Source: an uncultured Candidatus Saccharibacteria bacterium (lineage in GTDB: Bacteria; Patescibacteriota; Minisyncoccia; Phycocordibacterales; CAYSCM01). From it: DNA of 64,000 nucleotides. The position numbers and the translations under genes were made by a program. Shown piece by piece: positions 9,719-46,518 of this stretch. Position 1 is the stretch's first letter; each line of letters opens with the position of its first letter. Location: the NCBI GenBank assembly GCA_964429815.1, contig CAYSCM010000001.1, positions 64,001 to 128,000 of the forward strand, in the 5' to 3' direction. The notes beneath the pieces are model-generated. The model was not told the DNA's origin. It did not search any database and was given only the letters and a program-made list of their open reading frames with translations.

Positions 9719-10498
9719 TTATTCAATGATCTCGTACTCGGCCGCTTCGGCTGACACTGAAATGCTCGAGTCGTGTTTTCGGCGCGCAAGGTATACAGCG
9801 CCTGCGCCGAGCGCTAGCACGGTGCCGAGCGCGAGCCACCACAGGTACGGGGAGTGTTGTTCCTCCCCAGTAGCCACGAACCCCGGCTTCGGGGTCAGTG
9901 CGCTCTCTACAACGCCCGGGGGTGGCTCGAGGTTGGCGGGCTTTCGCGACGCTTTTTGTGTAATCACATTTGGGGAAGAAGGAGCGGTTTTTGCTGTCGG
10001 GATATCGGCTTGCGCGAGTGCCCGACCTGGAGAAGGTTTCGCGGCGATGAAGCCTCCGAGGGTGCGTGAGAGCGAAAGTCCGTCCCCTGCCGCGCCAAGC
10101 GCGTGTGTGTACGTGACCGAATCGAGCGTCGAGCTTCCGCTCAAAAGCGCGATTGTTTCGCCGGTATTCGAGAGCGAAAACGAGCTATCAAAAAGCGCCC
10201 CGGTGTAAGATGGGTTGTCGGCCAAAAATTTCGCCGGATCGGCGGCGATGACCGCATACACCCCCGAAGCCAGAACAGACGTACCGGACGCTTTGAGAGT
10301 GTGTCTGACTCCACCCTCGAGCAGCCTGAGGGTCGTAAGGTCGACGGGTCCGCCTCCCCCGTTGTATACCTCGATCCACTCGCGGCCATCATCGGCACCA
10401 GGGAGGTCATAGAGCACCTCGCTGATAGAGACCTGCGCGAAAAGCGGTAGTGGAGCGACGAGGAGCCCGATAAGCGCGCTAGTTCGAGTCATCAGCAA
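9719..10498 (-). CDS. secreted lamin-tail-domain (LTD) protein with C-terminal transmembrane anchor
   Basis: 259 aa. Signal peptide (LIGLLVAPLPLFAQ), LTD signature ISEVLYDLPG...REWIEVYN, Ser/Pro-rich linker, and C-terminal hydrophobic helix followed by ARRKHD. Overlaps the upstream ATPase gene by 20 nt. Confidence 0.7.
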   Translation of the reverse strand: MLMTRTSALIGLLVAPLPLFAQVSISEVLYDLPGADDGREWIEVYNGGGGPVDLTTLRLLEGGVRHTLKASGTSVLASGVYAVIAADPAKFLADNPSYTGALFDSSFSLSNTGETIALLSGSSTLDSVTYTHALGAAGDGLSLSRTLGGFIAAKPSPGRALAQADIPTAKTAPSSPNVITQKASRKPANLEPPPGVVESALTPKPGFVATGEEQHSPYLWWLALGTVLALGAGAVYLARRKHDSSISVSAEAAEYEIIE

Positions 10499-18356: not shown

Positions 18357-18528
18357 GTTGGTACCAGAGTCTCTTTTGTTCCGTTCAATATACCAGTACG
18401 CATTTCTGGAAAGCGAGCAGACTTTAAAGACATACTGCTATGGTCTACTTCCGTACTCGATCGAGATACAGAATATCGACCGGATAAGTCTTACCTTCCG
18501 AAGAAGGAGACAGTTCCGATTGGAATTA

Positions 18529-19980
<1,452 letters not shown>

Positions 19981-20386
19981 AATTCGTTGAACGGAACAAA
20001 AGAGAGGCTGGTACCTCCTTCTTGATTCCTTTTACCCGTCCGAGCCGCAAAGCGGTTAGGATTAGGGTTTTTTGATCAGACTACACCGCCCTGGTTGGCG
20101 GCTAATCTAGTTGAACAGATTTTGTCTGCTCGCACATAACGTTCTTTGATTATCAATGATCACTACCTCATTGGCCGTTCGCCTCAAGCGGATTAGGCCG
20201 AAACAAAAACCTGCCCAAGGCAGTGCAGACAGTATACGCAGAATTTGATGGGTGTCAAATGAAGGTCGCTCGCACACATCTTTTTGGAAACACGCATAAA
20301 ATAGGGCTTATTTTTGCTCCGCTCGCGCCGTCGCTCTGTGCGAGGTTTCCAAAAAGAGAATGCTCGCTCAAACAGGAAATGTAAAA

Positions 20387-20989
20387 TCAGATTGCGCCAC
20401 TCTGTGGAGGTTTTTTATTGAGATGTTGCCCAAAGAACGCCAGAGCTGTGATCGTTGTGTTGGCAAAAATCAAATAAATCGGATAAATCAGGTTAGCAAT
20501 ATCGAATTTTGTAGTCGAGACGGCAGCTAGAATTGCAGCGACGGCAATCATTGCCCACCCGAGAACGTTTTCTGAATAGGGCTCTCGATATGTCTTGGCT
20601 ATTGTCGGAATAGTCGAAATCAGGTCAGCCAGTACCGCTAGAATGAGCGCTACGAGAGGTTGTTTTGTAATTTGCCACAAACCTATAGCGATTATTGCTA
20701 GAGCAAAACAAGTATAATCAAGTGCCCCGTATTTTCTGTACCCATAACCAGACAAAGCAACAACAAGAATAAGCGCAGTGTTAAAAGTTGTTGTTATCAA
20801 GATTATGATGGACCACGATGCGCCGGCACTGAACTGAGCGGCTATGGCAATAATTTGTAGCGTGGTCCAAAGAACAAATGAAATTATATTTGGCCGAGTC
20901 GTACCCTTTATCATGCTTCTGACATAGGGGAAAACAGAGGCAATCTGGATTATTCCAGCAATAATTCCAACTACCGCATGCCAATCCAT
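20387..20989 (-). CDS. hypothetical integral membrane protein (~6 TM)
   Basis: Start placed at MDWHAVVGIIAGIIQ..., whose ATG overlaps the stop of secF. The upstream part of ORF 20387..21211 is antisense to secF. Confidence 0.5.
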   Translation of the reverse strand: MDWHAVVGIIAGIIQIASVFPYVRSMIKGTTRPNIISFVLWTTLQIIAIAAQFSAGASWSIIILITTTFNTALILVVALSGYGYRKYGALDYTCFALAIIAIGLWQITKQPLVALILAVLADLISTIPTIAKTYREPYSENVLGWAMIAVAAILAAVSTTKFDIANLIYPIYLIFANTTITALAFFGQHLNKKPPQSGAI

Positions 20990-20990
20990 C

Positions 20991-28913: not shown

Positions 28914-29024
28914 TAACCTGGCGGCTACCTACTCTCCCCTTGCGAGTACCATCGGCGCTAGCGGGCTTAACGGCCGTGTTCGGAATGAGAACGGGTGTTT
29001 CCCCGCCGCCAAACCACCAGATTA
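28914..29024 (-). rRNA. rrf: 5S ribosomal RNA (canonical copy)
   Basis: Reverse complement UCUGGUGGUUUGGCGGCGGGGAAACACCCGUUCUCAUUCCGAACACGGCCGUUAAGCCCGCUAGCGCCGAUGGUACUCGCAAGGGGAGAGUAGGUAGCCGCCAGGUUA. Very similar to Bacillus-type 5S. Confidence 0.85.
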
Positions 29025-29119: not shown

Positions 29120-30388
29120 GAGATTCAAAAAGTCGGGTTCGGCAGCCGACTTCCTCGATAGGATGAGGAAGATCGGCTGCCGCCCGCGCAAGGACGTGAG
29201 CAGTTGAGCGGGGCGCTCCTCCCGAGCGGCCACCATTCCCATCGCAGTGCTAAAGCGCTTCTTAGAATGGTCGCGGAGGGCGACACCATTCCAGCTCCGC
29301 AAAGGGTCCGTGCACGCTTCTTTCCCACGTCCGAAAAGCGAAAACAAAGAACTTAACGTTTCGAAGCGTCCGAAATCCGGGTAGATTTCGGCCACCAGTA
29401 AAACGTCAAGCGGGTTAAAAAAGTAACGAAAATCATATTCAATCAATTGCGACATGCAGATTCCCTGACAGGAAACTCGACGTATTAGTACGCCTCGGCT
29501 CAATCCGTTGCCGGACTTCCACCTGGCGCCTATCAACGTAATAGTCTCTTACGGGTCTCAACGAGTCCTCATCTCAGAGTTGGCTTCTTGCTTAGATGCT
29601 TTCAGCAATTATCCATGCCGAACTTAGCTACGCAGCGTGCTTCTGGCGAAACAGCTGCCACACCAGAGGTTCGTCCATTCCGGTCCTCTCGTACTAGGAA
29701 CAGATCTCTTCAAGACTCAACGCCCATGGTAGATAGGAGACCAACCTGTCTCACGACGGTTTGAACCCAGCTCGCGTATCTTTTTAATTGGCGAACAGCC
29801 AAACCCTTGGGACCTTCTCCAGCCCCAGGATAAGATGAGCCGACATCGAGGTGCCGAACGGTACCGTCGCTATGGACGCTTGGGTACCACTAGCCTGTTA
29901 TCCCCAGAGTAGCTTTTGTCCGATAATCTTCCCCCGCATCTAATGCGTAAGGTCGGTTCACTTTGCTCCGCTTTCGCGCCTGCTCGGCATGTACGCCTTA
30001 CAGTCAAGCTCCCTTTTGCCAATACACTATCGGCACGGTTTCCATTCGCGCCTAGGGAACCTTAATAGACTCCTCCGTTACTCTTTAGGAGGATAGCGCC
30101 CCACTAAAACTGCCTGCCATGCAGTGTCCCTCATCGTTTTTGCCGACGAGGTTAGAGACTATATGTTGTCAGGATGGTATTTCACTGGCGAGTCCACACT
30201 CCCCGGAAGGAATGCTTCAACCTCTCCCATCTATGCTGCGCAGAAAAAACATAGCCCCACTACAAAGCTACAGTAAAGCTTCTGGGGTCTTTTCGTCTAA
30301 CCACGGGTAACCGGCATCTTCACCGGTATTGTATTTTCACCAGGCTGATCCTCGAGACAGTCCCCCAGTCGTTACACCATTCGTGCAC

Positions 30389-30428
<40 letters not shown>

Positions 30429-31156
30429 GATTATAGTTATCGCCGACATTCACCAGGGCTTGCATAGCCCAGCACTACACATAAATGCATAGCACCATCC
30501 ATGCTTGACCTTCTGGCATTGGTCAGGTGTCACCCCCTATACATCCTCTTACGAGTTCGCAGGGAGCTGTGTTTTTGGTAAACAGTCGCCAGGAGTACTT
30601 TCGCTGCGGCCCCGCCGACTTGCGTCGAAAGGGCAGGCCTTATTGCTAACGTACGGCCGCTTTTTTGCCGAGTTCCTTGAGGATCAATCACCTGTTCGCC
30701 TTGGTCTACTCGACCTGACCACCTGTGTCGGATTACGGTACGGTCTCGTGTTTGTTATGCTTAGAGATTTTTCTTGGAAGCGTGCTCCCATGCGTAAATC
30801 CTCCGTAGAGGATCTCCCCGTGATGCTCGGACTTGCGACTCCCGGATTTTCCTAGAAGTCATCCTCACACCCCAGACACCAATCCAATAAGATGCGCATA
30901 GTACAACCCTTCGTCCTCTCATCGCACAAACACAAGGTCATGGAATATTAACCATGCATCCATTAGGTACGGCTTTCGCCATCCCCTTAGGACCGACTAA
31001 CCCTTGGCTGATCTTCATCGCCAAGGAAACCTTGGTCTTTCGGCGTGGGGGAGTCTCACCCCCATTGTGGTTACTCGTGCCGGCATTCTCACTTCGCAAC
31101 GCTCCACGCTCAGTTACCCTCGCGCTTCATGGCGGATGCGAACGCTCTCCTACCGC

Positions 31157-31340
31157 GTTATGTGTTTCGTTGAGGAGCCGAGGATGGCTCCTCGGCTATT
31201 AGTCTTCTTCGTCGTTATAGATGAACGGTATAGGTCCAAACATTGACCAGACCGCGACCGCAATGACGTAGATTGCAAACCAGTCGTCTTCCAACATGGC
31301 TTCACCTCTTTTGTACTTTCCTCAACGAAACACACAACAC
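31157..31340 (-). other. 23S rRNA intervening sequence (IVS) in helix 45: ~184-nt insertion closed by a 20-bp stem
   Basis: gttatgtgtttcgttgagga (31157-31176) pairs with tcctcaacgaaacacacaac (31319-31338). Located immediately 5' of the conserved GGGUAGGAGAGCGUUC, the classical helix-45 IVS site. Confidence 0.65.
31199..31297 (-). CDS. 32-aa hydrophobic peptide ORF inside the 23S IVS (MLEDDWFAIYVIAVAVWSMFGPIPFIYNDEED)
   Basis: ATG preceded by AAAGAGGUG at a 6-nt spacing. Single predicted TM helix. Not in the ORF track (<60 aa). Confidence 0.3.
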   Translation of the reverse strand: MLEDDWFAIYVIAVAVWSMFGPIPFIYNDEED

Positions 31341-31417
31341 CCTCAGTTTCGGTACAACGCTTAAGCCCCGATTATTTCCGGCGCAAGATCTCTCGATGAG
31401 TGAGCTGTTACGCTTTC

Positions 31418-31449
<32 letters not shown>

Positions 31450-32106
31450 TCATTGTCAGAGAAATTTCACCTCCTTAAGATGCACTGAGCGTTGATTTTG
31501 GGACCTTAACTTGAGATCTAGGCTCTTCCCTTTTTGACCACCGGAGCTTAGCCCCCGGAGTCTAACTGCGTGGTAGTGGAGAACGGTATTTGGAGTTTGA
31601 TAGGATTGACGAGCTTTCGCCCTATTCAATCCTTCCAGTGCTCTACCCCCGTTCTATAAACCACACGCCAGCCCAAAAGCTGTTTCGGAGAGAACCAGCT
31701 ATTACCAGGTTCGATAAGCTTTTCACTCCAACCCACAAGTCATCCGAATGCGTTGAACGACATACCGGTTCGGGCCTCCCCACTCCTTTCGGAGTGGTTC
31801 ACCCTGCTCATGGGTAGCTCACCTGGCTTCGGGTCGTATACGCGCTACTTAGTCGCGCTATTCACACTCGCTTTCGCTACGGCTTCGTCCGACAAAGGAC
31901 TTAGCCTCGCAACGCGCATACACTCGCCGGCTCATTCTTCAATAGGCACGCGGTCACCCGGAAGGATAGAAGCACCCAAGACTAGCCGATGGGTCGTTGC
32001 GGACGCATTGACCCTGTCGAACATGCTTCGATGCTTGTACCCTCCCAGGCTCCCACTCCTTGTAAGCATAGGGGTTCAGGTCTATTTCACTGCCCTCACC
32101 GGGCTT

Positions 32107-32146
<40 letters not shown>

Positions 32147-33192
32147 TTTGAGAATATTTAGCTTTACCGGTCAGTTCCGGCAGGTTCACCCAAGCTAACC
32201 GTGTCTTGGGCTACTCAAGAACAGAAACAAAGAAGAGTCATCATTTTCGTGTACGGGACTGTTACCCCCTGGGGTTTCGCGTTCCAGCGAATTCCACTAA
32301 CAATGACTTTTGTAACTTCTCTTGCATAAATGCAACGTCTCTGCCTTACAACCCCCACTCTCTTGCGAGAATAGGTTTGAGCTCATCCCTCTTCGCTCGC
32401 CGCTACTAAGGGAATTCCAAGAATTTCTCATACGTGGGACGCAGAGACGTCACACATATGAAAAATTCGTTATTGGTTTTTCTTCCTCCAGGTACTGAGA
32501 TGTTTCACTTCCCTGGGTGCGCATCACACACATACGTGTGGATTCTCATCGTAGATGAGAGAGTTTCCTCATTCGGAGATCTCCGGATCAAAGGTTGCTT
32601 AGCACCTCCCCGAAGCTTATCGCAGCTAGGCTACGTCCTTCATCGCTTCTCAAAGCCAAGGCATCCGCCCTATGCTCTTAGGTTTCCTGTCCGGAAACCT
32701 GCAAACCACAATTGTTTGATTGATTTTGATTACTTTACATTACCCACCTCGATTCTCCTTCGAAGAAACGAGGTTCGAATCACGTGATTTGGGTCACGCG
32801 ATTCTCCCACCTCAAACACCCAAAGACCCCAATTTTCGCACATGGGATACGATGTTTTGATGGAATGCAGTTTTCAAAGACTCACACGTGCTCTTGAATT
32901 ATGGAACTTCGCTCCATGCTTCCTTCGCTCGTCCGGAAATGAGAATGCGATTCTCGTTTCTCTCACTTCGCTAGGAAGTAAAAAATCCGCTCTGAAGCGG
33001 ACCGTTGGCTAACCGTATACACGGAATTACCCCCGCCGCTTGCTTTTAAAGCTGATCGAATAATTCATACACGTGGGGAGAGTATATGCCGGAGAGCCCT
33101 ACCTTGTCAAACCGAGGCTGTACTGAGAAAACACCAAGGAAAAGGGCCGCCTTGGGGGCGACCCTGCGCGCGAGCAAGATTCAGCGAGATCC

Positions 33193-39182: not shown

Positions 39183-42100
39183 TTAGTTCGAACGAGCCTG
39201 AATCAACCCCGCAGACGGAAGTCCCGGAATTGAGTAGCCGTTGCTGAAGTCGACCGTACCATTGGTTCCATCCCAGAGGCTTGCGGTCGTTGTCGAGTTG
39301 CCTGCCCAGACAAAGTTGCTTGAGCTTGTGGCAATTCCTGACGTTGCGACCTGGAAGCCGGAGGTGAGGTTCGTTTGGTAGGCCGTATCGCTCTTGAGGG
39401 TCGTGACTGCCGAGTAGGTTGTTGCCGTACCCGTCACCGTACCACGAAGCTCAAAGTAGTAGGTCTGGCCCGACGGGACCTGAACAGCGTTCGGGGTCGG
39501 CTGGAAGACCTGCGTCGCGCCTTGCGTAGGCGTTGCGATCGTTGCTCCAACTTGGCCGCCGGTGCCCTGACCAGAGATGGCCTGCGAGTACGAGCTGTCC
39601 GTGAAGCCGTAGAGCGATACGTTCGAGATGTTCATCGAGGTCGTCGCGAACGAGAAGGCGAACTTCGCAACTCCGACAGGTCCTGCGCTGTTAGCCGTCA
39701 CTTTGAATCGCATGAGACGACCGTCCGCTACACCTGACGATGGGAGACTGTCGAGCGAGAGCGTTGGGTAGCTCTTGAAGAAGCGCACCCCAGCGGTCGT
39801 GCTTGAGCCGCTACCCTTGACCGTCTGGCCAGAGGAAGCGCCGGTGCCTTCGAAGCTGCTCGGGTCGACCTCAATGAGATCGCCGACGCCGGTCGGTGCG
39901 CTTACGCTGATGCCGGCGATGTCCGCTTTGATGGTGAGCGGAATGTCGGTATCGCGAGTCACCGTGAAGGGCGAGATGAGCGTCGACGTCGCAATGGTGT
40001 TGGCGCCCGTGAGGGTTGCCGTACCAAGGAGCGTCGAACCGCTGTAGATGTAGAGCTGGGTTAGGTCACCCGCGGCAGTCGACGTGTTACCTGCACCAGT
40101 CTTGCCGAGCGAGCTTGCAGCTGCCGTAAGGCCGAGCTTGATGAGGTTAAACGATTCGTTAGCTGAGCGGATGCGGAATACGCCGACCGTAACGCCCGTC
40201 GTACCAGCCGCATTGATTGCGTAGGATGGCGAGGATGGGTCTACGTTGAGCGTAACCGAGGCGCTCGAGGACACTGTGAGCGTACCGCTGTTTCCGGTGG
40301 TCGGAAGGACGGTAAGCGAGTTGCCCGACTGAACACCCGTGTAGGTGATCGTGTCGCCGGAGTTTACACCGAAGATGTAGGTTGTGGCAGCAGTCGCGGC
40401 GCTCGAGAGATTGCACTGGAGCCCGAGGGTCTTGACCGTTCCCTTCGCAATGGTGATCGCATTGTCGAGGGTAATGGTGTTGGCGCCCGCAGCGACCGTG
40501 TTGAGCGTGTTGCTTCCCGTGTTAAGGGGAGTTGCTCCGTCAAAGAGCTGACAACCGCTGAGGTTTCCTACGGCGCCGGTGCCGCTCTCCCTCACCACAA
40601 GCGAGGAAAGGCGGACGTCTTCCGACGAGCTCGCTGCGTCAAGCTGAATGTTGCTGAAGAGCACATTCTGGCTTCCCGCAACGACGTTTTGCGATGCCGG
40701 GGTAGCAGCCGCGGTTACACCGAGGGCTAGCGTACGAACCGTCATCGTGTTCATCGTGAAGTTGGTCGTCGAGATCGTGATCGAGTTACCCGTTACCTGG
40801 CCCGTTGGGCTCGTCCAACTCGACGGAGTCGTGTTGAGGACAACGGTAGAGCCGCTCGGCCATCCCGTCGAAGGGATTTTACCTTTGAGGGTGTAGGTGC
40901 GCGAGCCAACCGGGAAGGTTACCGAGCTCGTGAAGTTGACGATCGAAGCGGACGCATCTACCGGACCAGCAACGACTGCGCCGTTTTGGTCAACGATCGA
41001 CACGCTGGTGATTTCGCTCACTGACGTCGTACCAGTGGAGGTGACGTTGAACTTCATGCCGGAGACCGTAACTGGCTCGCCTGCGAAGTTCGTGACGAAC
41101 CCGCCGAGAACCGTATTGGGGACGTTAACCGGAATGTTCTGTGAAGCGACCGAGGTTGCATTCTGGATGGTCGTCACCGTACCTGCGTTGATCGTTACCG
41201 TTGAGCCTTGGAAGACTGGCTGACCGCTGGTGTAGGTCGTCGCGTGCGTTGAAGCCGTCGAGACCGTACCAGAACCCGCTGCCATCGCAACGCCGTAGCC
41301 ATAGAGCTGGCCCACGAAGTAGACATCCGAGGTCTTGTCGACGTCGAACTCGGCGATGCGACCGGCAGAGTTGTTGCCTGTGAGGTCGCCCTGGAGGACA
41401 ACATCAATCGAGAAGCCCTTCTGAACGAGGATACCGCCCGGGAAGGACGAGGTCACATAGCGTCCGTCAGCAGAGACTACCGTCGGGTAGTTTGTGCCGT
41501 TGATTACCGCGACAAGGTTGCCGACATCGCTTATCGAAGCAGAACCGTTGATGCGGAAGCGGATGGAGAAGAGTTTGAGATCTTCTGCTGAACCCGCGGT
41601 GAAGCGAACGCCTGTGAAGCGAACAGCGGTTGCGCCGATGTTCTTGGTAGTGGCCGCGTTCGGGTCAAGCGAAGAAATCGCTGTCGTGACCGAACCGAGG
41701 CTGAGGGTTCCGTTGACCGTATTTGCCGCACCCGTGATCGGGAGAGCACCTGAAACCGTGGCAGTAGTGTTAACTGCGACTACGGAGATCGCGGCTACTT
41801 GACCGGCATAGCTGCCGAGGCTTGAGCCCATGTTACCCGCAATCGTGTAGTTCGACGTTCCGGCCGGGACCGTAAAGGTTCCGCCGACCGTCGCATTGTG
41901 ATTGCTGTCGAAGGTCTGGGTGTTGCCGATCTGGAGACCGTTGCTGTCGACAAGTACGACGCTTGCAAAGGCCGCATCAGCTGCGAGTCCTGTGCGCTGG
42001 ACCGTGACACCGTTTACGGTGACCGGAGCGCCGCTGTTGTTCGTGATCGTGAAGTTCGTGAATGGAACACGCACTGCGCTCGTTGGCGCCAGCGAGTTCG

Positions 42101-42704
42101 CCGGCTGGGCTCCGCCTGAGACCATGATGGTTCCTGCTGTGGTGCCTGTGCCGCCGGTCGTGCCGGTGCCGCCGGTCGTGCCGGTCGTGCATGCGGCGTT
42201 CACAGCTGCGCGGGTCTTAGGACCGAAGTAGCCGGCCGCCGGAGCTATCCCGTTGGCGGTCTGGTACTTGCCGAGCGCTGCTGCCGTTTTGCTGCCGAAG
42301 TAGGTGGACTCATTGCCGGGAGAACCCGAACCCGATGCTGCAACCTGAGTCGCCGCTTTCGAGTTTAGGAACTGCTGAAGGGCCTTAACATCCGCTCCCG
42401 AGGAACCGACGGTGAGGCTGCGAGACCAGGTGTACGGGCAGACAGCGGCGCCTGAGGTAGTCGTGCCGCCGGTCGTGCCGCCCGTGGTCGGGAGACCAAG
42501 AAGCGAAGCGTTGACATTGTTGATCGTCGCTTGGTCGGCCCCGAAGGACTGGAGGAGCGAGAGGATTGACTGGATCTGGCTCTGCGTAAGTGCCGCTGCC
42601 TGTGCAGGCGAGGTCACGAACGAGAAGAGCGCGATAGCCATCCCGACAGCAACTGCAACCGCCGCAATTTTCATCACGGCTTTGTTTGTAATGCTGGAAT
42701 TCAT
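39183..42704 (-). CDS. giant secreted surface protein (~1170 aa) with N-terminal peptidoglycan-binding domain and long Thr/Ser/Gly/Val-rich beta-repeat region
   Basis: Signal peptide MNSSITNKAVMKIAAVAVAVGMAIALFSFVTSPAQA. PG_binding_1-like VKALQQFLN...YFGSKTAAALGKYQTANGIAPAAGYFGPKTRAAVNA, flanked by (TTGG)n linkers, then ~900 aa of low-complexity beta-rich repeats. The start is ambiguous (42704 or 42674). Confidence 0.7.
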   Translation of the reverse strand: MNSSITNKAVMKIAAVAVAVGMAIALFSFVTSPAQAAALTQSQIQSILSLLQSFGADQATINNVNASLLGLPTTGGTTGGTTTSGAAVCPYTWSRSLTVGSSGADVKALQQFLNSKAATQVAASGSGSPGNESTYFGSKTAAALGKYQTANGIAPAAGYFGPKTRAAVNAACTTGTTGGTGTTGGTGTTAGTIMVSGGAQPANSLAPTSAVRVPFTNFTITNNSGAPVTVNGVTVQRTGLAADAAFASVVLVDSNGLQIGNTQTFDSNHNATVGGTFTVPAGTSNYTIAGNMGSSLGSYAGQVAAISVVAVNTTATVSGALPITGAANTVNGTLSLGSVTTAISSLDPNAATTKNIGATAVRFTGVRFTAGSAEDLKLFSIRFRINGSASISDVGNLVAVINGTNYPTVVSADGRYVTSSFPGGILVQKGFSIDVVLQGDLTGNNSAGRIAEFDVDKTSDVYFVGQLYGYGVAMAAGSGTVSTASTHATTYTSGQPVFQGSTVTINAGTVTTIQNATSVASQNIPVNVPNTVLGGFVTNFAGEPVTVSGMKFNVTSTGTTSVSEITSVSIVDQNGAVVAGPVDASASIVNFTSSVTFPVGSRTYTLKGKIPSTGWPSGSTVVLNTTPSSWTSPTGQVTGNSITISTTNFTMNTMTVRTLALGVTAAATPASQNVVAGSQNVLFSNIQLDAASSSEDVRLSSLVVRESGTGAVGNLSGCQLFDGATPLNTGSNTLNTVAAGANTITLDNAITIAKGTVKTLGLQCNLSSAATAATTYIFGVNSGDTITYTGVQSGNSLTVLPTTGNSGTLTVSSSASVTLNVDPSSPSYAINAAGTTGVTVGVFRIRSANESFNLIKLGLTAAASSLGKTGAGNTSTAAGDLTQLYIYSGSTLLGTATLTGANTIATSTLISPFTVTRDTDIPLTIKADIAGISVSAPTGVGDLIEVDPSSFEGTGASSGQTVKGSGSSTTAGVRFFKSYPTLSLDSLPSSGVADGRLMRFKVTANSAGPVGVAKFAFSFATTSMNISNVSLYGFTDSSYSQAISGQGTGGQVGATIATPTQGATQVFQPTPNAVQVPSGQTYYFELRGTVTGTATTYSAVTTLKSDTAYQTNLTSGFQVATSGIATSSSNFVWAGNSTTTASLWDGTNGTVDFSNGYSIPGLPSAGLIQARSN

Positions 42705-43406
42705 AACGTAATGGTTACTGTTAATGCCCGTGTGAACGGGCGATTCGCGAGACTCACAGGAGTCGACCCCATGAAGCGCGCGAGGAGTGACCTTTGCATG
42801 AAGTGCTTTCGGCACTCGGTCACGGTTGATAATCACTTTTGTACTATTTCCCTACCCCCGTGGTATCGACCCGGAAGCTAGAGAACTAGTGGCGAAGAGA
42901 GGTGGTTGTTCTGTATGTATTCAGCCGAGGAGGAATAAAGAGTTGCGGTAAACTGAAGCACGAGGGCAGAGCCCTCATTTTTTGAAGAAACGAGTTTTTC
43001 GGTATATGAAATTGTCAACGTCCTTCCGTGCACCCCGGTTCATTTTCCTCAAAAGTTCTGAAATAACTCAGTTAATTCCAAGAAAAACACACTCCCAGAG
43101 CTCCGCCTATTATAGACGCGCTACTTTTGCGCATCAAAACGGACAATGTGGATAACTAACGCCAAAAAAGCCCACAGATTGGTCTTTTTTGGCCGTTTTC
43201 CACGCAGCGCGGAGCATACACAAGAAGACGGCACCGGTCAATGAACATTTCCTCTAAAAAATGGCGCAATACTTGGATACGATGTCAATTTTTAGGCAGG
43301 TTTAGGTTCCTTTGAGAGCTTAAGGCCTTCGGGGACCCTAAAGGGTGGAAGGAGGGGCGCACAAGGTGAAAATGTGGCAACTTAAAAATGTGATAACTCT
43401 GGTAAC

Positions 43407-44174
43407 TCAAGGTGTGCCCGGGGTCGGCACCTCGGTAACGGACAATGAATACGAGCTCCAGCGTCTCTCGCCTTCTTTTTTAAGGACACCCTCTTGGACC
43501 ATGGCTATAAGTTCGCGCTGAAGGGTTTTCTCACTGACACCCGTAATGGCTGTTGCTAAGTTTCTTATGGTTATTCTTTGGTTTTTGGACAGTAAATCCA
43601 AAACAATCCTCCTGCGATCTAAGCGCTGTGTAGCGGTTGAATCGGTCAATGAGACATTGCTATGTCCATTAGAAATGTCTTTTTTACTGCGTCTGGTGTG
43701 CGACTGTCCACCACTGAGCATTTTTTGATCAAGGCGTCCCTCCGGAATAAGGGCTTCGGCAAGGATCGCGGAGCGCTCGAGCGAAGAAACGCGCCCGAGA
43801 AGCTGTCGAAGCGCCTCGTATTCGTTGCGCAAAACAGCGACATTGGCGGAGCTAATAGAGCGAGAGCCTTCAGCGACTGTTAGATACGAAATGATGCCCA
43901 CCATGAGACCTTCGACACGGACAAGTTCGAGAGCGTTCCCAGCAAAAAGGTCTGCTATGGCGTGTAGGATGGAAATACTGGATGACCGAAGCGACGATCG
44001 CAAAGGCTCACTATGACCTAAACGGTCCGTTACAAGATGAACAGCAGAAGATAGTTTCTGTCCTTTTTGTAGAGCGTATAAGATTCCTTGATTAAAAGAT
44101 TTGGATTCTGAGACAATATTAATGTCTGATTTTGTCCAAAAAGGATTAATTTTTTCTTGTCTCATTGTGTCCAA
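43407..44174 (-). CDS. hypothetical protein with C-terminal winged-HTH (putative DNA-binding regulator)
   Basis: 255 aa. C-terminal RIVLDLLSKNQRITIRNLATAITGVSEKTLQRELIAMVQEGVLKK is DeoR/HrcA-like wHTH. The 5' half of the gene is markedly AT-rich. Confidence 0.45.
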   Translation of the reverse strand: MDTMRQEKINPFWTKSDINIVSESKSFNQGILYALQKGQKLSSAVHLVTDRLGHSEPLRSSLRSSSISILHAIADLFAGNALELVRVEGLMVGIISYLTVAEGSRSISSANVAVLRNEYEALRQLLGRVSSLERSAILAEALIPEGRLDQKMLSGGQSHTRRSKKDISNGHSNVSLTDSTATQRLDRRRIVLDLLSKNQRITIRNLATAITGVSEKTLQRELIAMVQEGVLKKEGERRWSSYSLSVTEVPTPGTP

Positions 44175-44346
44175 TATATGTCTTTTATAACTATCGGACC
44201 TTCCCTGTAGCCTACAGTATACGTGTGTCTTTAAAGTTGATTCAATTGACGATCGTCAAAAACCGTTTTCTACCTCTTACTTTAGCCGTGGGTTCCTCTA
44301 CACCCGCTCCGGGGCGGCCTGAGAGGCTCAGCGTGCGTGCTATTAT

Positions 44347-46518
44347 GTGCCCACCATGGCTCGGAAGGAGAAAAAACCTCGATTTTGGTCGTCTTTTTCC
44401 ACTCTTCCGAGCGAAACGAAACGGGGTGTCGTTGCAGTCCTCCTTTTTGCCGCGACTGCTCTATGCATTCTTGCGGCTAACAACATGGCCGGTATCGGCG
44501 GTCGCGCTCTTTATAGCGGTATAAGCTATCTTTTTGGGCTCGGTTACTACCTTGTACCCATACTTACGCTCACGCTTGGCGTTATCTTGGTGCGTCCCCT
44601 GGAGCGGGAAGTCGGCCTCCTCAAAATCGCCGGAGCGCTTCTCCTCTTCTTTTCCGCGCTTGGCCTCGTCGACACCGTCGCTAAAAGCCGTGGTGGAGAG
44701 GTAGGAAACCTCATATCATCTCCGCTACAAGACCTCTTCGATCTTCCGGCTACCGTAGCGATCCTCGTAACGCTTCTTCTGATATCCTTCTTCATCCTTT
44801 TTGAGCTTAAATTCATCCTGCGAATGCCTGGCTGGCTTGCGACCGTCAGACTATTCAGGCGGAAGAGCGAAGACATCGATGAACCGGCCATAACGAGTTA
44901 TCAGGACGGCGAAGAGGAAGATGTCGAAGAAGACGAGGAAGAGCTTAATGAGGACGAAGAGGAGGACGAGGTGGAACCGAGAATCACCAAATCTCCCTTG
45001 GTTCCTGACTCCCCTGCCCCCGCCGGTTTTCGCTCTCGCATGCGCGGTGCATATATTCCTCCGCCACTGTCTCTTTTTGAACGTGACAAGGGTAAGCCTG
45101 GTGTTGGCGACATCAAAGCAAACGCAAACATAATCAAGCGTACCTTCCAGAACTTCGGTATCAGCGTTGAAATGGACGAGGTCTCCATCGGACCGACGGT
45201 CACTCGCTACGCGCTAAAACCCGCCGAGGGTGTGCGCCTCAGTAAGATCGTTTCGCTCCAGAACAACCTTGAGCTCGCCCTCGCCGCTCATCCGGTGCGC
45301 ATCGAAGCGCCCATTCCTGGAAAGTCGCTTGTTGGCATCGAAGTACCGAACTCGACGAAAGCTACCGTCGGCTTCGCGACACTCCTTTCTTCGACGGAAT
45401 TTACCTCGTCGGATAAGCCGCTTCTCCTTGCACTCGGCCGCGATATCGCTGGCTCCCCCATCCTCGCTAACTTGGCTAAAATGCCTCACGCTCTTATCGC
45501 GGGAGCCACCGGCTCGGGCAAGTCCGTGACTATCCATGCGCTCATAAATTCATTGCTCTATAGAAATTCCCCCGAGCAACTCCGGTTCATCATGATCGAT
45601 CCCAAGCGCGTCGAGCTCACTCTCTACAACAACATCCCCCACCTTCTCACCCCCGTCATCACTGATCCGAAAAAGACCATTCTCGCCCTCAAATGGGCCG
45701 GAAAAGAAATGGAGCGGCGCTACAACATTCTTGAAGCCGAGGGTGCGCGCGACATAGACTCCTACCACAAAAACGTCCTCGCGCCTGCCCTCGAAAAAAC
45801 CCATGGAAATGACGATGCTCCGGTCGAGACCATGCCCTACATCATCGTCATCATCGATGAACTCGCCGATATCATGCAGACCTACCCGCGCGAACTTGAA
45901 GCCGCGGTCGTGCGTCTCGCCCAGATGAGCCGCGCGGTCGGTATTCACCTCATTCTCTCCACGCAGCGACCGTCGGTGAACGTCATCACGGGCCTCATTA
46001 AGGCGAACGTTCCGGCCCGCATCGCACTTCAAGTCGCCTCCCAGATCGACTCGCGCACCATTCTCGACGGCTCCGGTGCGGAAAAGCTCCTCGGCGCAGG
46101 AGACATGCTCTATCTCTCCGGCGATATGGGCAAGCCGGTACGCCTCCAGGCTCCCTATCTCTCGGAGTCCGAGGTGAAAAAGGTCGCCAAGTATCTCAAG
46201 GACAACTATGCGGACCTTATCTCGGACGAAATACAATTTAGCGATGAAAGTAAGGGCGTTGGCCTCTCCCCCGCGTTCGAAGATGAGGAGATAGACGACG
46301 ACATGTATCAAGAGGCAAAACAAATCGTCGAAGAAGCCGGCAAGGCTTCGACGAGCTACCTTCAGCGCAAGCTTCGTATCGGCTACTCTCGCGCCGCACG
46401 CATCATGGACATACTCGAAGAGCGCGGCGTCATCGGGCCTGCGGACGGAAGCAAGCCGCGCGAAGTGCTCGGCGCTTCCGGAAGCAAAGAGGGTGAAGAG
46501 GGTGGCGAAGACGTATGA
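44347..46518 (+). CDS. ftsK: DNA translocase FtsK/SpoIIIE
   Basis: 723 aa. 4 N-terminal TM helices, acidic linker, motor domain with Walker A IAGATGSGKS and IIDELADIM Walker B, and C-terminal gamma domain (YLQRKLRIGYSRAARIMDILEERGVIG). Confidence 0.95.
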   Translation: MPTMARKEKKPRFWSSFSTLPSETKRGVVAVLLFAATALCILAANNMAGIGGRALYSGISYLFGLGYYLVPILTLTLGVILVRPLEREVGLLKIAGALLLFFSALGLVDTVAKSRGGEVGNLISSPLQDLFDLPATVAILVTLLLISFFILFELKFILRMPGWLATVRLFRRKSEDIDEPAITSYQDGEEEDVEEDEEELNEDEEEDEVEPRITKSPLVPDSPAPAGFRSRMRGAYIPPPLSLFERDKGKPGVGDIKANANIIKRTFQNFGISVEMDEVSIGPTVTRYALKPAEGVRLSKIVSLQNNLELALAAHPVRIEAPIPGKSLVGIEVPNSTKATVGFATLLSSTEFTSSDKPLLLALGRDIAGSPILANLAKMPHALIAGATGSGKSVTIHALINSLLYRNSPEQLRFIMIDPKRVELTLYNNIPHLLTPVITDPKKTILALKWAGKEMERRYNILEAEGARDIDSYHKNVLAPALEKTHGNDDAPVETMPYIIVIIDELADIMQTYPRELEAAVVRLAQMSRAVGIHLILSTQRPSVNVITGLIKANVPARIALQVASQIDSRTILDGSGAEKLLGAGDMLYLSGDMGKPVRLQAPYLSESEVKKVAKYLKDNYADLISDEIQFSDESKGVGLSPAFEDEEIDDDMYQEAKQIVEEAGKASTSYLQRKLRIGYSRAARIMDILEERGVIGPADGSKPREVLGASGSKEGEEGGEDV

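What the first reader, a model, noticed from the sequence alone, without database searches (positions are those of the whole stretch)
42837..44174. AT-rich island: 570-bp low-GC intergenic region plus a regulator-like gene with a strongly AT-skewed 5' half, between the giant surface-protein gene and ftsK
The region 42837-43406 and the first ~400 nt of the gene at 44174-43407 are visibly lower in GC (roughly 35-45 percent) than the surrounding ~60 percent GC coding sequence. The intergenic stretch contains an A/T-flanked palindrome (GCCAAAAAAG...CUUUUUUGGC at ~43165-43197). The encoded protein has a C-terminal DeoR/HrcA-like winged HTH and an uncharacterised N-terminal domain. The region may be a horizontally acquired regulatory module, or a long 5' leader and promoter region controlling the 1.2k-aa surface protein.
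Basis: seen in the sequence. Interest (0 to 1): 0.5.

Follow-up and report, generated by a model that had tools for sequence, protein, structure and literature searches.

The report
Conserved promoter-leader cassette for surface protein
The AT-rich patch is not foreign DNA but a control region shared across Paceibacteria (candidate-phyla bacteria): a regulator gene, tandem promoters carrying an invariant TTATCCACA box, and a ~400-nt leader RNA with a previously uncatalogued conserved hairpin, all placed in front of the gene for a giant cell-surface protein.

Summary
The low-GC patch is real but milder than described: 46.5% GC over 42837-44346 against 54.9% for the window, the lowest 1.5 kb in it.

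It is not a horizontally acquired island. In all 80 related loci fetched from different Paceibacteria species the order is the same: ftsK, regulator, a 250-1100 bp spacer, then the surface-protein gene. The spacer is AT-poorer than its locus in 64 of 64 loci.

The spacer holds:
- An oriented TTATCCACA box, perfect in 71 of 82 spacers and identical to the DnaA-box consensus. It sits 31±1 nt before a TATAAT -10 hexamer.
- A leader of about 400 nt with a hairpin capped by GUGUCGAU. The hairpin shows strong covariation and matches nothing in Rfam.

The true start of the surface-protein gene is 42704, not 42836.

The regulator is an Avd-like four-helix bundle joined to a DeoR-type winged helix. It is not Fic/Doc and not HrcA.

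What binds the box and what the leader does remain inferred.

The parts
44166..44484 (.). Divergent spacer between ftsK (44485-46518, +) and the regulator gene. It is the lowest-GC spot of the window (32-36%). It carries promoter-like sites for both genes, including TATATT 7 nt before the regulator ATG, which suggests a leaderless mRNA.
   Evidence: GC profile. ftsK start from the database gene call mapped onto the window. Promoter scan (TTGAAT-18-TATACT, 44245-44216, - strand). Start context.
43407..44165 (-). Regulator gene, 252 aa. Residues 24-139 form an Avd-like four-helix bundle, 140-175 a disordered linker, and 176-241 a DeoR-type winged helix-turn-helix. GC3 is 0.28 in the first 75 codons.
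43213..43241 (-). Upstream promoter-like site P0 (TTGACC-17-TATGCT). It is conserved in L003 (TTGACC-17-TATGAT). A comparable site lies within 130 nt upstream of the box in 44/71 loci.
   Evidence: control rate 9%.
43161..43194 (.). It lies between P0 and the box. It probably ends regulator and P0 transcripts, and it could also stop antisense transcription.
   Evidence: Fold -18.3 kcal/mol, z -2.9 (- strand) and -3.6 (+ strand). Equivalent hairpin plus T-run 10-15 nt before the box in L003 and L005; 20/71 loci have a terminator-like hairpin in this segment.
43147..43155 (-). Invariant box TTATCCACA (preceded by G at 43156), identical to the DnaA-box consensus. It lies about 8 nt upstream of the -35 of P1, at roughly -52 to -44. 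It is a presumed transcription-factor operator.
   Evidence: The only perfect copy in the 64 kb. Perfect and co-oriented in 71/82 spacers (72 copies in 50.8 kb against 33 in 833 kb outside). A 1-2 mismatch variant at the same place in the other 10. The -10 hexamer starts 30-33 nt after the box in 53/71 loci.
43109..43137 (-). Main promoter P1 (TTGATG-17-TATAAT). The predicted transcription start is near 43102.
   Evidence: 10/12 match. Anchored alignment of 71 loci. TATAAT is the commonest -10, found in 26 of the 30 loci that pass the strict promoter test (control 2%); the -35 is mostly weak (TTGnnn).
42705..43102 (-). Predicted 5' leader of the surface-protein mRNA, about 400 nt. It is about 67-77% identical to L003 although the flanking regulator protein is only 41% identical. 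No conserved small ORF.
   Evidence: No canonical terminator between hairpin and ATG in 69/71 loci. Small ORFs not conserved.
43002..43018 (-). Conserved linear motif TTGACAATTTCATATAC (family consensus TTGACA-N5-AATA). It is not a -35 element and not a stable hairpin. It is probably a single-stranded RNA recognition element; its UGACA is complementary to the UGUCG of the main hairpin loop.
   Evidence: Found in 55 leaders. A TAnnnT hexamer at 16-18 nt in only 3/57, equal to the control rate. Fold z = -0.09.
42962..42976 (-). Leader hairpin GAGGGC-UCU-GCCCUC, conserved in L003.
42841..42891 (-). Main conserved leader hairpin: CUA, a variable stem, the loop GGGUCGAUA, the returning stem, then UAGU. 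It is the window's copy of a covarying RNA motif found only in this spacer across Paceibacteria.
   Evidence: Covariance model R2: 20 bits, E = 0.015 in the window, the only hit. 47 co-oriented hits in 46 of the 81 related loci searched plus the window, all inside the regulator-to-surface spacer. 93.8% of cells paired against 74.8% in shuffles; 167 double-change cells against 52; 11/14 pairs compensatory; slid controls about 50%. Predicted independently by RNAalifold. Fold z = -3.5.
42745..42823 (-). Two further leader hairpins. 42787-42823 is a nested hairpin. 42745-42783 has the loop GGUCGAC. Compensatory changes against L003 occur at 3 and 5 pairs respectively.
   Evidence: Fold -32.4 kcal/mol, z -2.2. 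GUCGAA-loop hairpins recur near the start codon in many loci.
39183..42704 (-). Surface-protein gene, 1173 aa. It encodes a signal peptide, a PG_binding_1 domain, and a long Thr/Gly/Ser/Ala-rich body. It is the gene controlled by the cassette.
   Evidence: Pfam PG_binding_1, E 9.5e-8. Gene call. Homologues of 600-1260 aa downstream of the regulator in all loci.

Best explanation
The AT-rich stretch is the conserved control region of the main cell-surface protein gene of a Paceibacteria (Parcubacteria) bacterium.

**Shown**
- ftsK and a regulator gene diverge from an AT-rich spacer.
- Downstream of the regulator lie, in order: a promoter (P0); a terminator-like hairpin; an oriented, nearly invariant TTATCCACA box placed 31±1 nt before a consensus -10 whose -35 is weak (P1); and about 400 nt of non-coding sequence before the surface-protein ATG.
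- That non-coding sequence holds a covarying hairpin with the invariant loop GUGUCGAU, further GUCGA-loop hairpins, and a TTGACA-N5-AATA motif.

**Inferred**
- P1 is an activator-dependent promoter, and the box is its operator.
- The box is most likely bound by the adjacent Avd-like/winged-helix regulator. Its recognition helix (SEKT[I/L]QREL) and wing (GERRWSxYSL) are as invariant as the box. DnaA is the alternative binder.
- The transcript runs through the leader into the gene.
- The hairpins stabilise the mRNA and/or bind a protein that controls translation. This lineage's 16S rRNA lacks the CCUCC anti-Shine-Dalgarno sequence, and many of its genes look leaderless.

**Why the GC is low.** The region combines non-coding regulatory sequence with a regulator gene of low GC3, next to a Thr/Gly/Ala-rich gene of high GC3.
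For: - **Synteny and spacer.** Same order and a long spacer in all 80 related loci. Spacer GC is below the locus GC in 64/64 loci.
- **Spacer conservation.** The spacer DNA is more conserved than the flanking regulator protein.
- **Box.** Perfect in 71/82 spacers and a 1-2 mismatch variant in the rest, about 36-fold denser than elsewhere, always co-oriented.
- **Promoter coupling.** Fixed box-to-TATAAT spacing. Promoter tests against controls.
- **Leader hairpin.** 47 model hits, all in this spacer. 93.8% paired, 11/14 pairs compensatory, 0/500 shuffles reach the observed score. RNAalifold finds the same hairpin independently.
- **Read-through.** No terminator between hairpin and ATG in 69/71 loci.
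- **Extra boxes.** Elsewhere they precede secreted or surface-protein genes in L009, L014, L045, L059 and L070.
- **Regulator.** Fold and domains.
- **Translation context.** No anti-SD and no SD.
Against: - There are no transcript data, so transcription starts, read-through and leader length are predictions.
- The window's own hairpin scores only 20 bits. It is credible mainly through its position and the family.
- The box equals the DnaA-box consensus, so DnaA may bind it rather than the neighbouring regulator. Box variants do not co-vary with the regulator's recognition helix.
- Boxes also occur before a 23S rRNA gene (L084) and before unrelated genes. The window's 16S promoter lacks one. 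The regulon is therefore not cleanly 'envelope'.
- In AT-rich relatives a TATAAA lies 1-7 nt before the ATG. This leaves room for a proximal promoter and a separate upstream RNA.
- The GC3 of 0.28 in the regulator's first 75 codons is not explained.
Confidence: 0.62

Rival explanations
1. The box is a true DnaA box. DnaA, not the neighbouring regulator, controls P1, and so ties surface-protein synthesis to the replication or cell cycle, next to ftsK. The rest of the cassette (promoters, leader, hairpin) is as in the best explanation.
For: - The 9-mer is exactly the DnaA-box consensus and is invariant over deep divergence, as expected for a universally conserved DNA-binding domain.
- It is an asymmetric single site, the way DnaA binds.
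- L084 has three co-oriented boxes 11-12 bp apart plus a fourth.
- Box variants do not track the regulator's recognition helix.
Against: - No dnaA gene lies near any of the 82 loci.
- The variants seen (TAATCCACA, TTATCCCCA, TTATCCACT) change positions that E. coli DnaA does not tolerate well (my own knowledge).
- The regulator gene is always adjacent and co-oriented, and its DNA-reading residues are invariant.
- No Paceibacteria oriC could be examined to learn this lineage's DnaA-box consensus.
Confidence: 0.2
2. P1 drives a free-standing small or medium non-coding RNA carrying the TTGACA motif and the GUCGAU hairpin. The surface-protein gene is transcribed separately, as a leaderless mRNA, from a promoter just before its ATG.
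For: - Many genes in this lineage have a -10-like hexamer 6-9 nt before the ATG and no SD.
- AT-rich relatives have AATTATAAA 1-7 nt before the surface-protein ATG.
- An AUG about 400 nt inside a leader is hard to reach without an SD.
Against: - No canonical terminator lies between hairpin and ATG in 69/71 loci.
- The window and L003 have no convincing -10 before the ATG.
- The TATAAA-to-ATG distance varies from 1 to 7 nt, which does not fit a fixed leaderless start.
- The hairpin is always co-oriented with and upstream of this one gene.
Confidence: 0.12
3. The region is the chromosomal replication origin, or part of it: a DnaA box plus an AT-rich unwinding element between divergently transcribed genes.
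For: - A perfect DnaA box.
- A 32-36% GC trough at 44000-44300.
- ftsK and the regulator diverge there.
- A partial inverted box copy 40-70 nt upstream of the box is modestly enriched: 29/71 loci against about 15 expected.
Against: - There is only one perfect box, and 1-mismatch copies in the window occur at chance level (10 found, 7.2 expected).
- The box lies about 900 bp from the AT trough.
- Its spacing to a -35/-10 pair is fixed, which points to promoter control.
- No dnaA lies within ±6 kb in any of 82 loci, and the cumulative GC skew has no V-shaped minimum.
- The strand skew around the site follows the coding strands.
Confidence: 0.04
4. It is a horizontally acquired regulatory module.
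For: Lower GC than the surroundings and low GC3 of the regulator gene.
Against: - The same genes appear in the same order with the same AT-poor spacer in all 80 loci from different species.
- The region is flanked by core genes (ftsK, recA, efp).
- There are no adjacent tRNA genes, and the ±10 kb gene calls of L003 show no mobility-gene families.
Confidence: 0.02

Closest known systems
Long 5' untranslated leaders and tandem promoters of S-layer or cell-wall protein genes (Lactobacillus slpA, Brevibacillus brevis cwp operon, Thermus thermophilus slpA with its repressor SlrA). Recalled from my own knowledge; not retrieved here.
   Same: - A very abundant envelope protein gene preceded by more than one promoter.
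- A long, hairpin-rich leader thought to give mRNA stability.
- In Thermus, a dedicated transcription factor and leader-level control.
   Different: - The leader is much longer (about 400 nt against about 100-200).
- The lineage lacks SD/anti-SD pairing.
- Hairpin loop sequences are invariant across species, which suggests specific recognition rather than simple 5' protection.
- There is no sequence or Rfam relation.
- It has not been shown that the protein is an S-layer protein.
DnaA box (TTATCCACA) and DnaA-regulated promoters
   Same: Identical 9-mer; an asymmetric single site; located next to a promoter.
   Different: - No cluster of boxes, no dnaA nearby, no origin features.
- Fixed position just upstream of a weak -35.
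- The binding protein has not been identified.
Avd/bAvd accessory proteins of diversity-generating retroelements, and the 'four-helix-bundle / 23S rRNA intervening-sequence protein' family (PDB 8ub7_B, 4dwl, 2gsc, 2rld)
   Different: - Here the bundle is fused to a C-terminal winged helix.
- No reverse transcriptase lies nearby.
- Sequence similarity is almost nil: 1/51 members hit PF22296 at E = 0.002.
DeoR-family transcription regulators (PF08220 HTH_DeoR)
   Same: The winged helix matches HTH_DeoR in 29/51 family members, best E = 6.8e-7. The fold is confirmed by the model.
   Different: - The HTH is C-terminal, not N-terminal.
- There is no DeoR C-terminal sugar-phosphate sensor domain.
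- The window protein itself scores below the Pfam cut-off.

Membership tests
Horizontally acquired genomic island | Absent from, or differently placed in, related genomes | tested here: not met
   Same order (ftsK, regulator, spacer, surface gene) in all 80 loci from different species.
Horizontally acquired genomic island | Composition atypical for the host genome only | tested here: not met
   Low GC of the spacer (64/64 loci) and of the regulator gene (54-56/64) is shared by the whole lineage.
Horizontally acquired genomic island | Flanking tRNA or mobility genes | tested here: not met
   The nearest tRNA genes are at 16.3-16.6 kb and 51.7 kb. Neighbours are ftsK, recA, efp and a sigma factor, and the Pfam families listed for the ±10 kb gene calls include no integrase or transposase.
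Fic/Doc domain protein | Fic fold and the motif HxFx(D/E)GNGRxxR | tested here: not met
HrcA repressor | N-terminal winged helix plus an HrcA C-terminal domain, about 340 aa | tested here: not met
   252 aa with a C-terminal HTH; no HrcA hit in Pfam or NCBIfam.
DeoR-family regulator | HTH_DeoR winged helix | tested here: met
   29/51 family members hit PF08220 at E ≤ 0.01, best 6.8e-7. The model shows helix-helix-helix-strand-strand at residues 176-241. The window protein alone is below the cut-off.
DeoR-family regulator | C-terminal DeoR effector-binding domain, with the HTH at the N-terminus | tested here: not met
   The architecture is reversed, and the other domain is a four-helix bundle.
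Avd-like / four-helix-bundle (23S rRNA IVS protein) family | Up-down four-helix bundle of about 110 residues superposable on Avd | tested here: met
Avd-like / four-helix-bundle (23S rRNA IVS protein) family | Sequence-level match to the family profile | tested here: inconclusive
   Only 1/51 members hits PF22296 bAvd, E 0.0021. A profile search of PDB finds nothing.
Avd-like / four-helix-bundle (23S rRNA IVS protein) family | Association with a DGR reverse transcriptase | tested here: not met
   No reverse transcriptase among the genes within ±10 kb in L001 and L003.
Bacterial replication origin (oriC) | Cluster of several DnaA boxes | tested here: not met
   One perfect box. ≤1-mismatch matches in the window are at chance level: 10 against 7.2 expected. 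One box per spacer in 70/71 loci.
Bacterial replication origin (oriC) | Adjacent to dnaA/dnaN, or at a GC-skew switch | tested here: not met
   tblastn with DnaA gives no hit in the window or in 84 loci, and there is no V-shaped skew minimum.
Known RNA families (Rfam 15) | Covariance-model match | tested here: not met
   Nothing meaningful at E ≤ 10 in 42500-44500. Nothing in the equivalent spacers of four other loci at E ≤ 1.
Structured cis-regulatory leader RNA (generic kind) | Conserved secondary structure supported by covariation, in a fixed position and orientation upstream of one gene | tested here: met
Structured cis-regulatory leader RNA (generic kind) | Transcribed as part of the downstream mRNA and affecting its expression | not testable with these tools
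   Needs RNA-seq, 5' mapping and reporter assays. Indirect support only: no terminator in 69/71 loci.
Rho-independent terminator (for the palindrome 43161-43194) | Stable G+C-containing hairpin followed by a U run | tested here: inconclusive
   Stable fold with a U6 run that is part of the stem. Not listed by the consensus scan because of an internal mismatch. Clearer equivalents exist in L003 and L005.

The most novel reading that the evidence does not exclude
The Avd-like/winged-helix protein is a dual DNA- and RNA-binding master regulator of the Paceibacteria envelope. Its winged helix reads the TTATCCACA box to activate P1. Its oligomeric Avd-like bundle binds the invariant GUCGAU/GUCGAA hairpin loops and the UUGACA motif of the leader. 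This would give Shine-Dalgarno-independent control of translation or stability of the main surface protein, in a lineage that has lost the anti-SD and is largely leaderless.
Probability: 0.1. Interest if true: 0.8.

Novelty: new variant of a known kind. Interest (0 to 1): 0.55.

Why it matters
Gene regulation in the candidate phyla radiation is almost unexplored, and these organisms cannot be handled genetically. This locus gives a concrete set of parts, shared by the related species examined here (80 loci fetched; the regulator itself was found in at least 587 species genomes):
- a regulator family with an unusual fusion of an Avd-like bundle and a winged helix;
- an invariant operator-like box with a defined promoter geometry;
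- a new covarying leader RNA motif.

All of them sit in front of what is probably the most abundant envelope protein.

Each part can be tested in vitro (protein-DNA and protein-RNA binding) or in metatranscriptomes.

The locus also raises a clear question. How is an internal AUG, about 400 nt into a leader, translated by ribosomes whose 16S rRNA lacks the anti-Shine-Dalgarno sequence?

Tried and rejected
1. **Rfam.** Searches of the region and of four related spacers found nothing.
2. **MAFFT plus RNAalifold on 22 hand-cut hairpins.** This gave no structure because the alignment was out of register. It was replaced by two rounds of covariance models.
3. **Metagenome scan with a window-specific pattern.** It only re-found the L003 organism, so no further close relatives were available for the window-specific hairpins.
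4. **afdb50 fold search.** The library was not available.
5. **oriC reading.** Rejected.
6. **TTGACA motif as the -35 of a third promoter.** Rejected: the -10 rate equals the control rate. As the loop of a stable hairpin it is also rejected (z = -0.09).
7. **Small ORFs in the leader.** The 22-25 aa ORF over the TTGACA motif and L003's called 48-aa ORF are not conserved, and substitutions do not follow a codon pattern.
8. **Co-variation between box variants and the regulator's recognition helix.** Uninformative.
9. **Box as a general rRNA-promoter element.** It is present before the 23S gene in L084 but absent from the window's 16S promoter.
10. **Five literature searches** for prior descriptions (Patescibacteria or Parcubacteria S-layer promoters, TTATCCACA in CPR, leaderless or SD use, Avd plus winged helix). 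None found anything relevant.
11. **PDB sequence searches with the protein and the family profile.** No informative hit.
Full report
**1. Observation**

The window averages 54.9% GC, not about 60%. The flagged stretch is lower: 45.6% for 42837-43406, 47.1% for 43407-44174, and 46.5% for 42837-44346. It contains the lowest-GC 1.5-kb stretch of the window. The deepest trough is 32-36% at 44000-44300.

The 5' AT bias of the gene also shows at synonymous sites. GC3 is 0.28 in the first 75 codons, 0.51 in the rest, and 0.59-0.77 in seven neighbouring genes.

The palindrome is real. It lies at 43161-43194, folds at -18.3 kcal/mol, and has z = -2.9 on the - strand and -3.6 on the + strand.

Two boundaries needed correction:
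- The surface-protein gene starts at ATG 42704, giving 1173 aa. This rests on the database gene call and on an N-terminus conserved in L003. It does not start at the GTG of the longest ORF (42836). The non-coding stretch is therefore 42705-43406, 702 bp.
- The regulator starts at 44165 and is 252 aa, identical to P0001.
- ftsK starts at 44485. A second long spacer, 44166-44484, therefore holds the GC minimum.

**2. Not an island**

The regulator has 292 detected homologues, all from Patescibacteria. A scan of one genome per species found at least 587 species with a relative and returned 80 loci.

In essentially every locus the order is the same: ftsK on the opposite strand, then the regulator, then a spacer of 250-1100 bp (median about 600), then a co-oriented gene for a 600-1260-aa protein. 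That protein shares the signal peptide and peptidoglycan-binding N-terminus of the window protein (Pfam PG_binding_1).

Composition follows the same pattern across loci:
- The spacer is 5.9 GC points below its locus in 64/64 loci.
- The regulator gene is 3-4.6 points lower in 54-56/64.
- The surface gene is 3 points higher in 61/64.

**3. The spacer is under strong constraint**

Against L003, whose regulator is only 41% identical, the spacer aligns over about 600 nt with long exact blocks.

*The box*
- Across the 82 spacers the most recurrent 9-mer is TTATCCACA. It is perfect, single and co-oriented with the genes in 71.
- There are 72 copies in 50.8 kb of spacer against 33 in 833 kb elsewhere.
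- The ten spacers without a perfect copy carry a 1-2 mismatch variant at the same place.
- In the window it lies at 43147-43155 on the - strand, the only perfect copy in 64 kb.

*The promoter next to it*
- Anchoring 71 loci on the box shows a fixed layout: box, then 6-9 nt, then TTTG/TTGnnn, then about 17 nt, then TATAAT.
- A near-consensus -10 hexamer starts 30-33 nt after the box in 53/71 loci.
- The -35 is usually weak. That is typical of activator-dependent promoters.
- In the window this is P1 (TTGATG-17-TATAAT, 43137-43109), which predicts a start near 43102.

*Upstream of the box*
- A second promoter-like site (P0, 43241-43213) is conserved in L003. A comparable site exists in 44/71 loci against 9% of controls.
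Clearer hairpin-plus-T-run terminators occupy that position in L003 and L005, and 20/71 loci have one in this segment.

**4. A new leader RNA motif**

Between P1 and the ATG the loci share a hairpin of the form CUA, variable stem, (U)GUGUCGA(U/A), optional inserted stem-loop, returning stem, UAGU(G/A).

I started from two sequences with a hand-set structure and built a covariance model in two rounds. In 937 kb (both strands) it found 47 co-oriented hits at E < 1. They fall in 46 of the 81 related loci searched plus the window, and every one lies inside the regulator-to-surface spacer. The three further hits are opposite-strand images of the same sites.

The window's copy is 42841-42891 on the - strand: 20 bits, E = 0.015 in the window, and the only hit there.

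On the model alignment:
- 93.8% of cells form pairs, against 74.8% in shuffles and about 50% when partners are slid.
- 167 cells show changes on both sides, against 52 ± 10 in shuffles (0/500 shuffles reach the observed value).
- 11 of 14 pairs show compensatory changes.

That alignment is fitted to the model. However, RNAalifold on plain MAFFT alignments predicts the same hairpin independently, both for nine AT-rich relatives and for the window/L003 pair.

The window/L003 comparison also supports two more hairpins, both conserved by compensatory changes: 42787-42823, and 42745-42783 with loop GGUCGAC. Hairpins with a GUCGAA loop recur near the start codon in many loci.

A second linear motif, TTGACA-N5-AATA, is present in 55 leaders (window 43018-43002):
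- It is not a -35 element. A -10 follows at the control rate, 3/57.
- It does not sit in a stable hairpin (z = -0.09).
- Its UGACA is complementary to the UGUCG of the invariant loop. Because both are invariant, this cannot be tested by covariation.

Rfam has no match, either in the window or in four other loci. No small ORF is conserved in the leader. A canonical terminator between the hairpin and the ATG is absent in 69/71 loci, which favours a continuous leader over a separate RNA gene.

**5. The regulator**

An AlphaFold model built from 51 homologues has pLDDT 83.6. It shows a four-helix bundle (residues 24-139), a disordered, low-complexity linker (140-175), and a winged helix (176-241).

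At sequence level the bundle is an orphan: one weak bAvd hit in 51 members. The winged helix matches HTH_DeoR in 29/51 members.

Nearly invariant residues cluster in the recognition helix and the wing: SEKT[I/L]QREL and GVLKKEGERRWSxYSL.

**6. How it most likely works**

*Shown:* the gene order, the box and promoter geometry, the covarying hairpin, and the domain architecture.

*Inferred:*
- **(a)** P1 is activated, or otherwise controlled, through the box. The adjacent regulator is the best candidate binder, for three reasons:
  - its gene is always next to the box;
  - its DNA-reading residues are as invariant as the box;
  - extra boxes elsewhere often precede secreted or surface-protein genes (L009, L014, L045, L059, L070).
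- DnaA is a serious alternative because the 9-mer is its exact consensus. L084 also has three tandem boxes plus a fourth ahead of a 23S rRNA gene.
- **(b)** Transcripts from P1, and read-through from P0, carry the roughly 400-nt leader into the gene.
- **(c)** The hairpins protect the mRNA and/or are bound by a protein that sets translation.

Point (c) matters here for two reasons:
- The window's 16S rRNA ends ...GUGGAUUAAUUCCAAU, without CCUCC.
- The 28 annotated starts I inspected have no SD. Many have a -10-like hexamer 6-9 nt before the ATG, including the regulator itself (TATATT-GGACACA-ATG). This suggests widespread leaderless mRNAs.

**7. Rivals**

- **oriC.** Disfavoured. There is a single box, its spacing is locked to a promoter, the AT trough is 900 bp away, no dnaA lies within ±6 kb in 82 loci, and there is no skew minimum.
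- **Separate sRNA plus a leaderless surface-protein mRNA.** Still possible. AATTATAAA lies just before the ATG in AT-rich relatives. But the spacing varies, and the window and L003 lack a proximal -10.
- **Horizontal transfer.** Contradicted (section 2).

**8. Novelty and limits**

The kind is known: a promoter with an upstream operator plus a structured leader in front of an abundant envelope protein, comparable to S-layer gene leaders.

The parts are not catalogued:
- the RNA motif is not in Rfam;
- the bundle has no Pfam assignment;
- five literature searches found no prior description.

Limits:
- There are no expression data.
- The window's hairpin scores weakly on its own.
- The box-binding protein is unresolved.
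- The very low GC3 of the regulator's 5' third is unexplained.

Noticed in passing
window 18519-18540 (- strand, 3' end of 16S rRNA): The 16S rRNA ends ...GUGGAUUAAUUCCAAU. The canonical CCUCC anti-Shine-Dalgarno core is replaced by UUCC/AAUUCC.
   Followed up: partly
L001 and L003 gene starts (window equivalents include 44165 and 42704): None of 28 annotated starts has a GGAGG-like SD. About a third to a half have a TAnnnT hexamer 6-9 nt before the ATG (for example DUF1360, MetRS, EFP, TPR, lipase-like and the regulator). This suggests that leaderless mRNAs are common in this lineage.
   Followed up: partly
window 18519-19980, 28916-29021, 29465-32691 (- strand): The 16S and 23S-5S rRNA genes are unlinked, 9.5 kb apart with ORFs between them. 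The 23S match spans 3227 nt for a 2925-nt model, so it carries about 300 nt of insertion(s).
   Followed up: no
window 20000-20990 (- strand): A second low-GC patch (about 43%) covers an ORF for a small multi-pass membrane protein (MDWHAVVGIIAGIIQIASVFPYV...). It lies just upstream of a 16S promoter-like site (TTGACA-16-TATACT near 20255-20225). That promoter has no TTATCCACA box.
   Followed up: partly
L084 8865-8900 and 9044-9052: Three co-oriented box copies 11-12 bp apart (GTATCCACA, TGTTCACA, TTATCCACA), plus a fourth 150 bp on. They lie between the surface-protein gene and a 23S rRNA gene that starts at 9806.
   Followed up: partly
L009 9358-9378; L014 9076; L059 10996; L070 10990: Extra TTATCCACA boxes lie downstream of the main surface gene. 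They precede a paralogous surface protein (L009, two boxes 12 nt apart) or small secreted proteins with a shared 'A(T/S)T(I)STN...G.LTVTG' N-terminus.
   Followed up: partly
window 43195-43204 (- strand) and equivalent sites in 29/71 loci: A partial inverted copy of the box ((T/A)GTGGAT(A); window CGTGGAAAAC) lies just after the -10 of P0, 40-70 nt upstream of the box. It reaches ≥7/9 matches in 29/71 loci against about 15 expected. It could be a second operator, or the 5' arm of an RNA helix with the box.
   Followed up: partly
L014, L018, L024, L031, L033, L049, L068 spacers, last ~90 nt before the ATG: AT-rich relatives share a hairpin whose loop reads CAAAA(C/U)AUUAUUAAU. This nearly repeats the sequence at the start codon, (A)CAUUAUUAUG. 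The start codon is preceded by AAUUAUAAA.
   Followed up: no
window 47.9-49.0 kb (from L001 747-1669) and L003 5264-6183: An ECF-like sigma-70 gene (196 aa, regions 2 and 4) is followed by a 106-108-aa gene, possibly an anti-sigma factor. The pair keeps its place three genes from the cassette in both the window and L003.
   Followed up: no
window 43941-44165 (- strand): The first 75 codons of the regulator gene have GC3 = 0.28, far below every neighbouring gene (0.59-0.77). L003 shows a weaker version (0.40). The cause is unknown. Candidates are a requirement of leaderless mRNA, embedded signals for the divergent ftsK promoter, or weak selection.
   Followed up: partly
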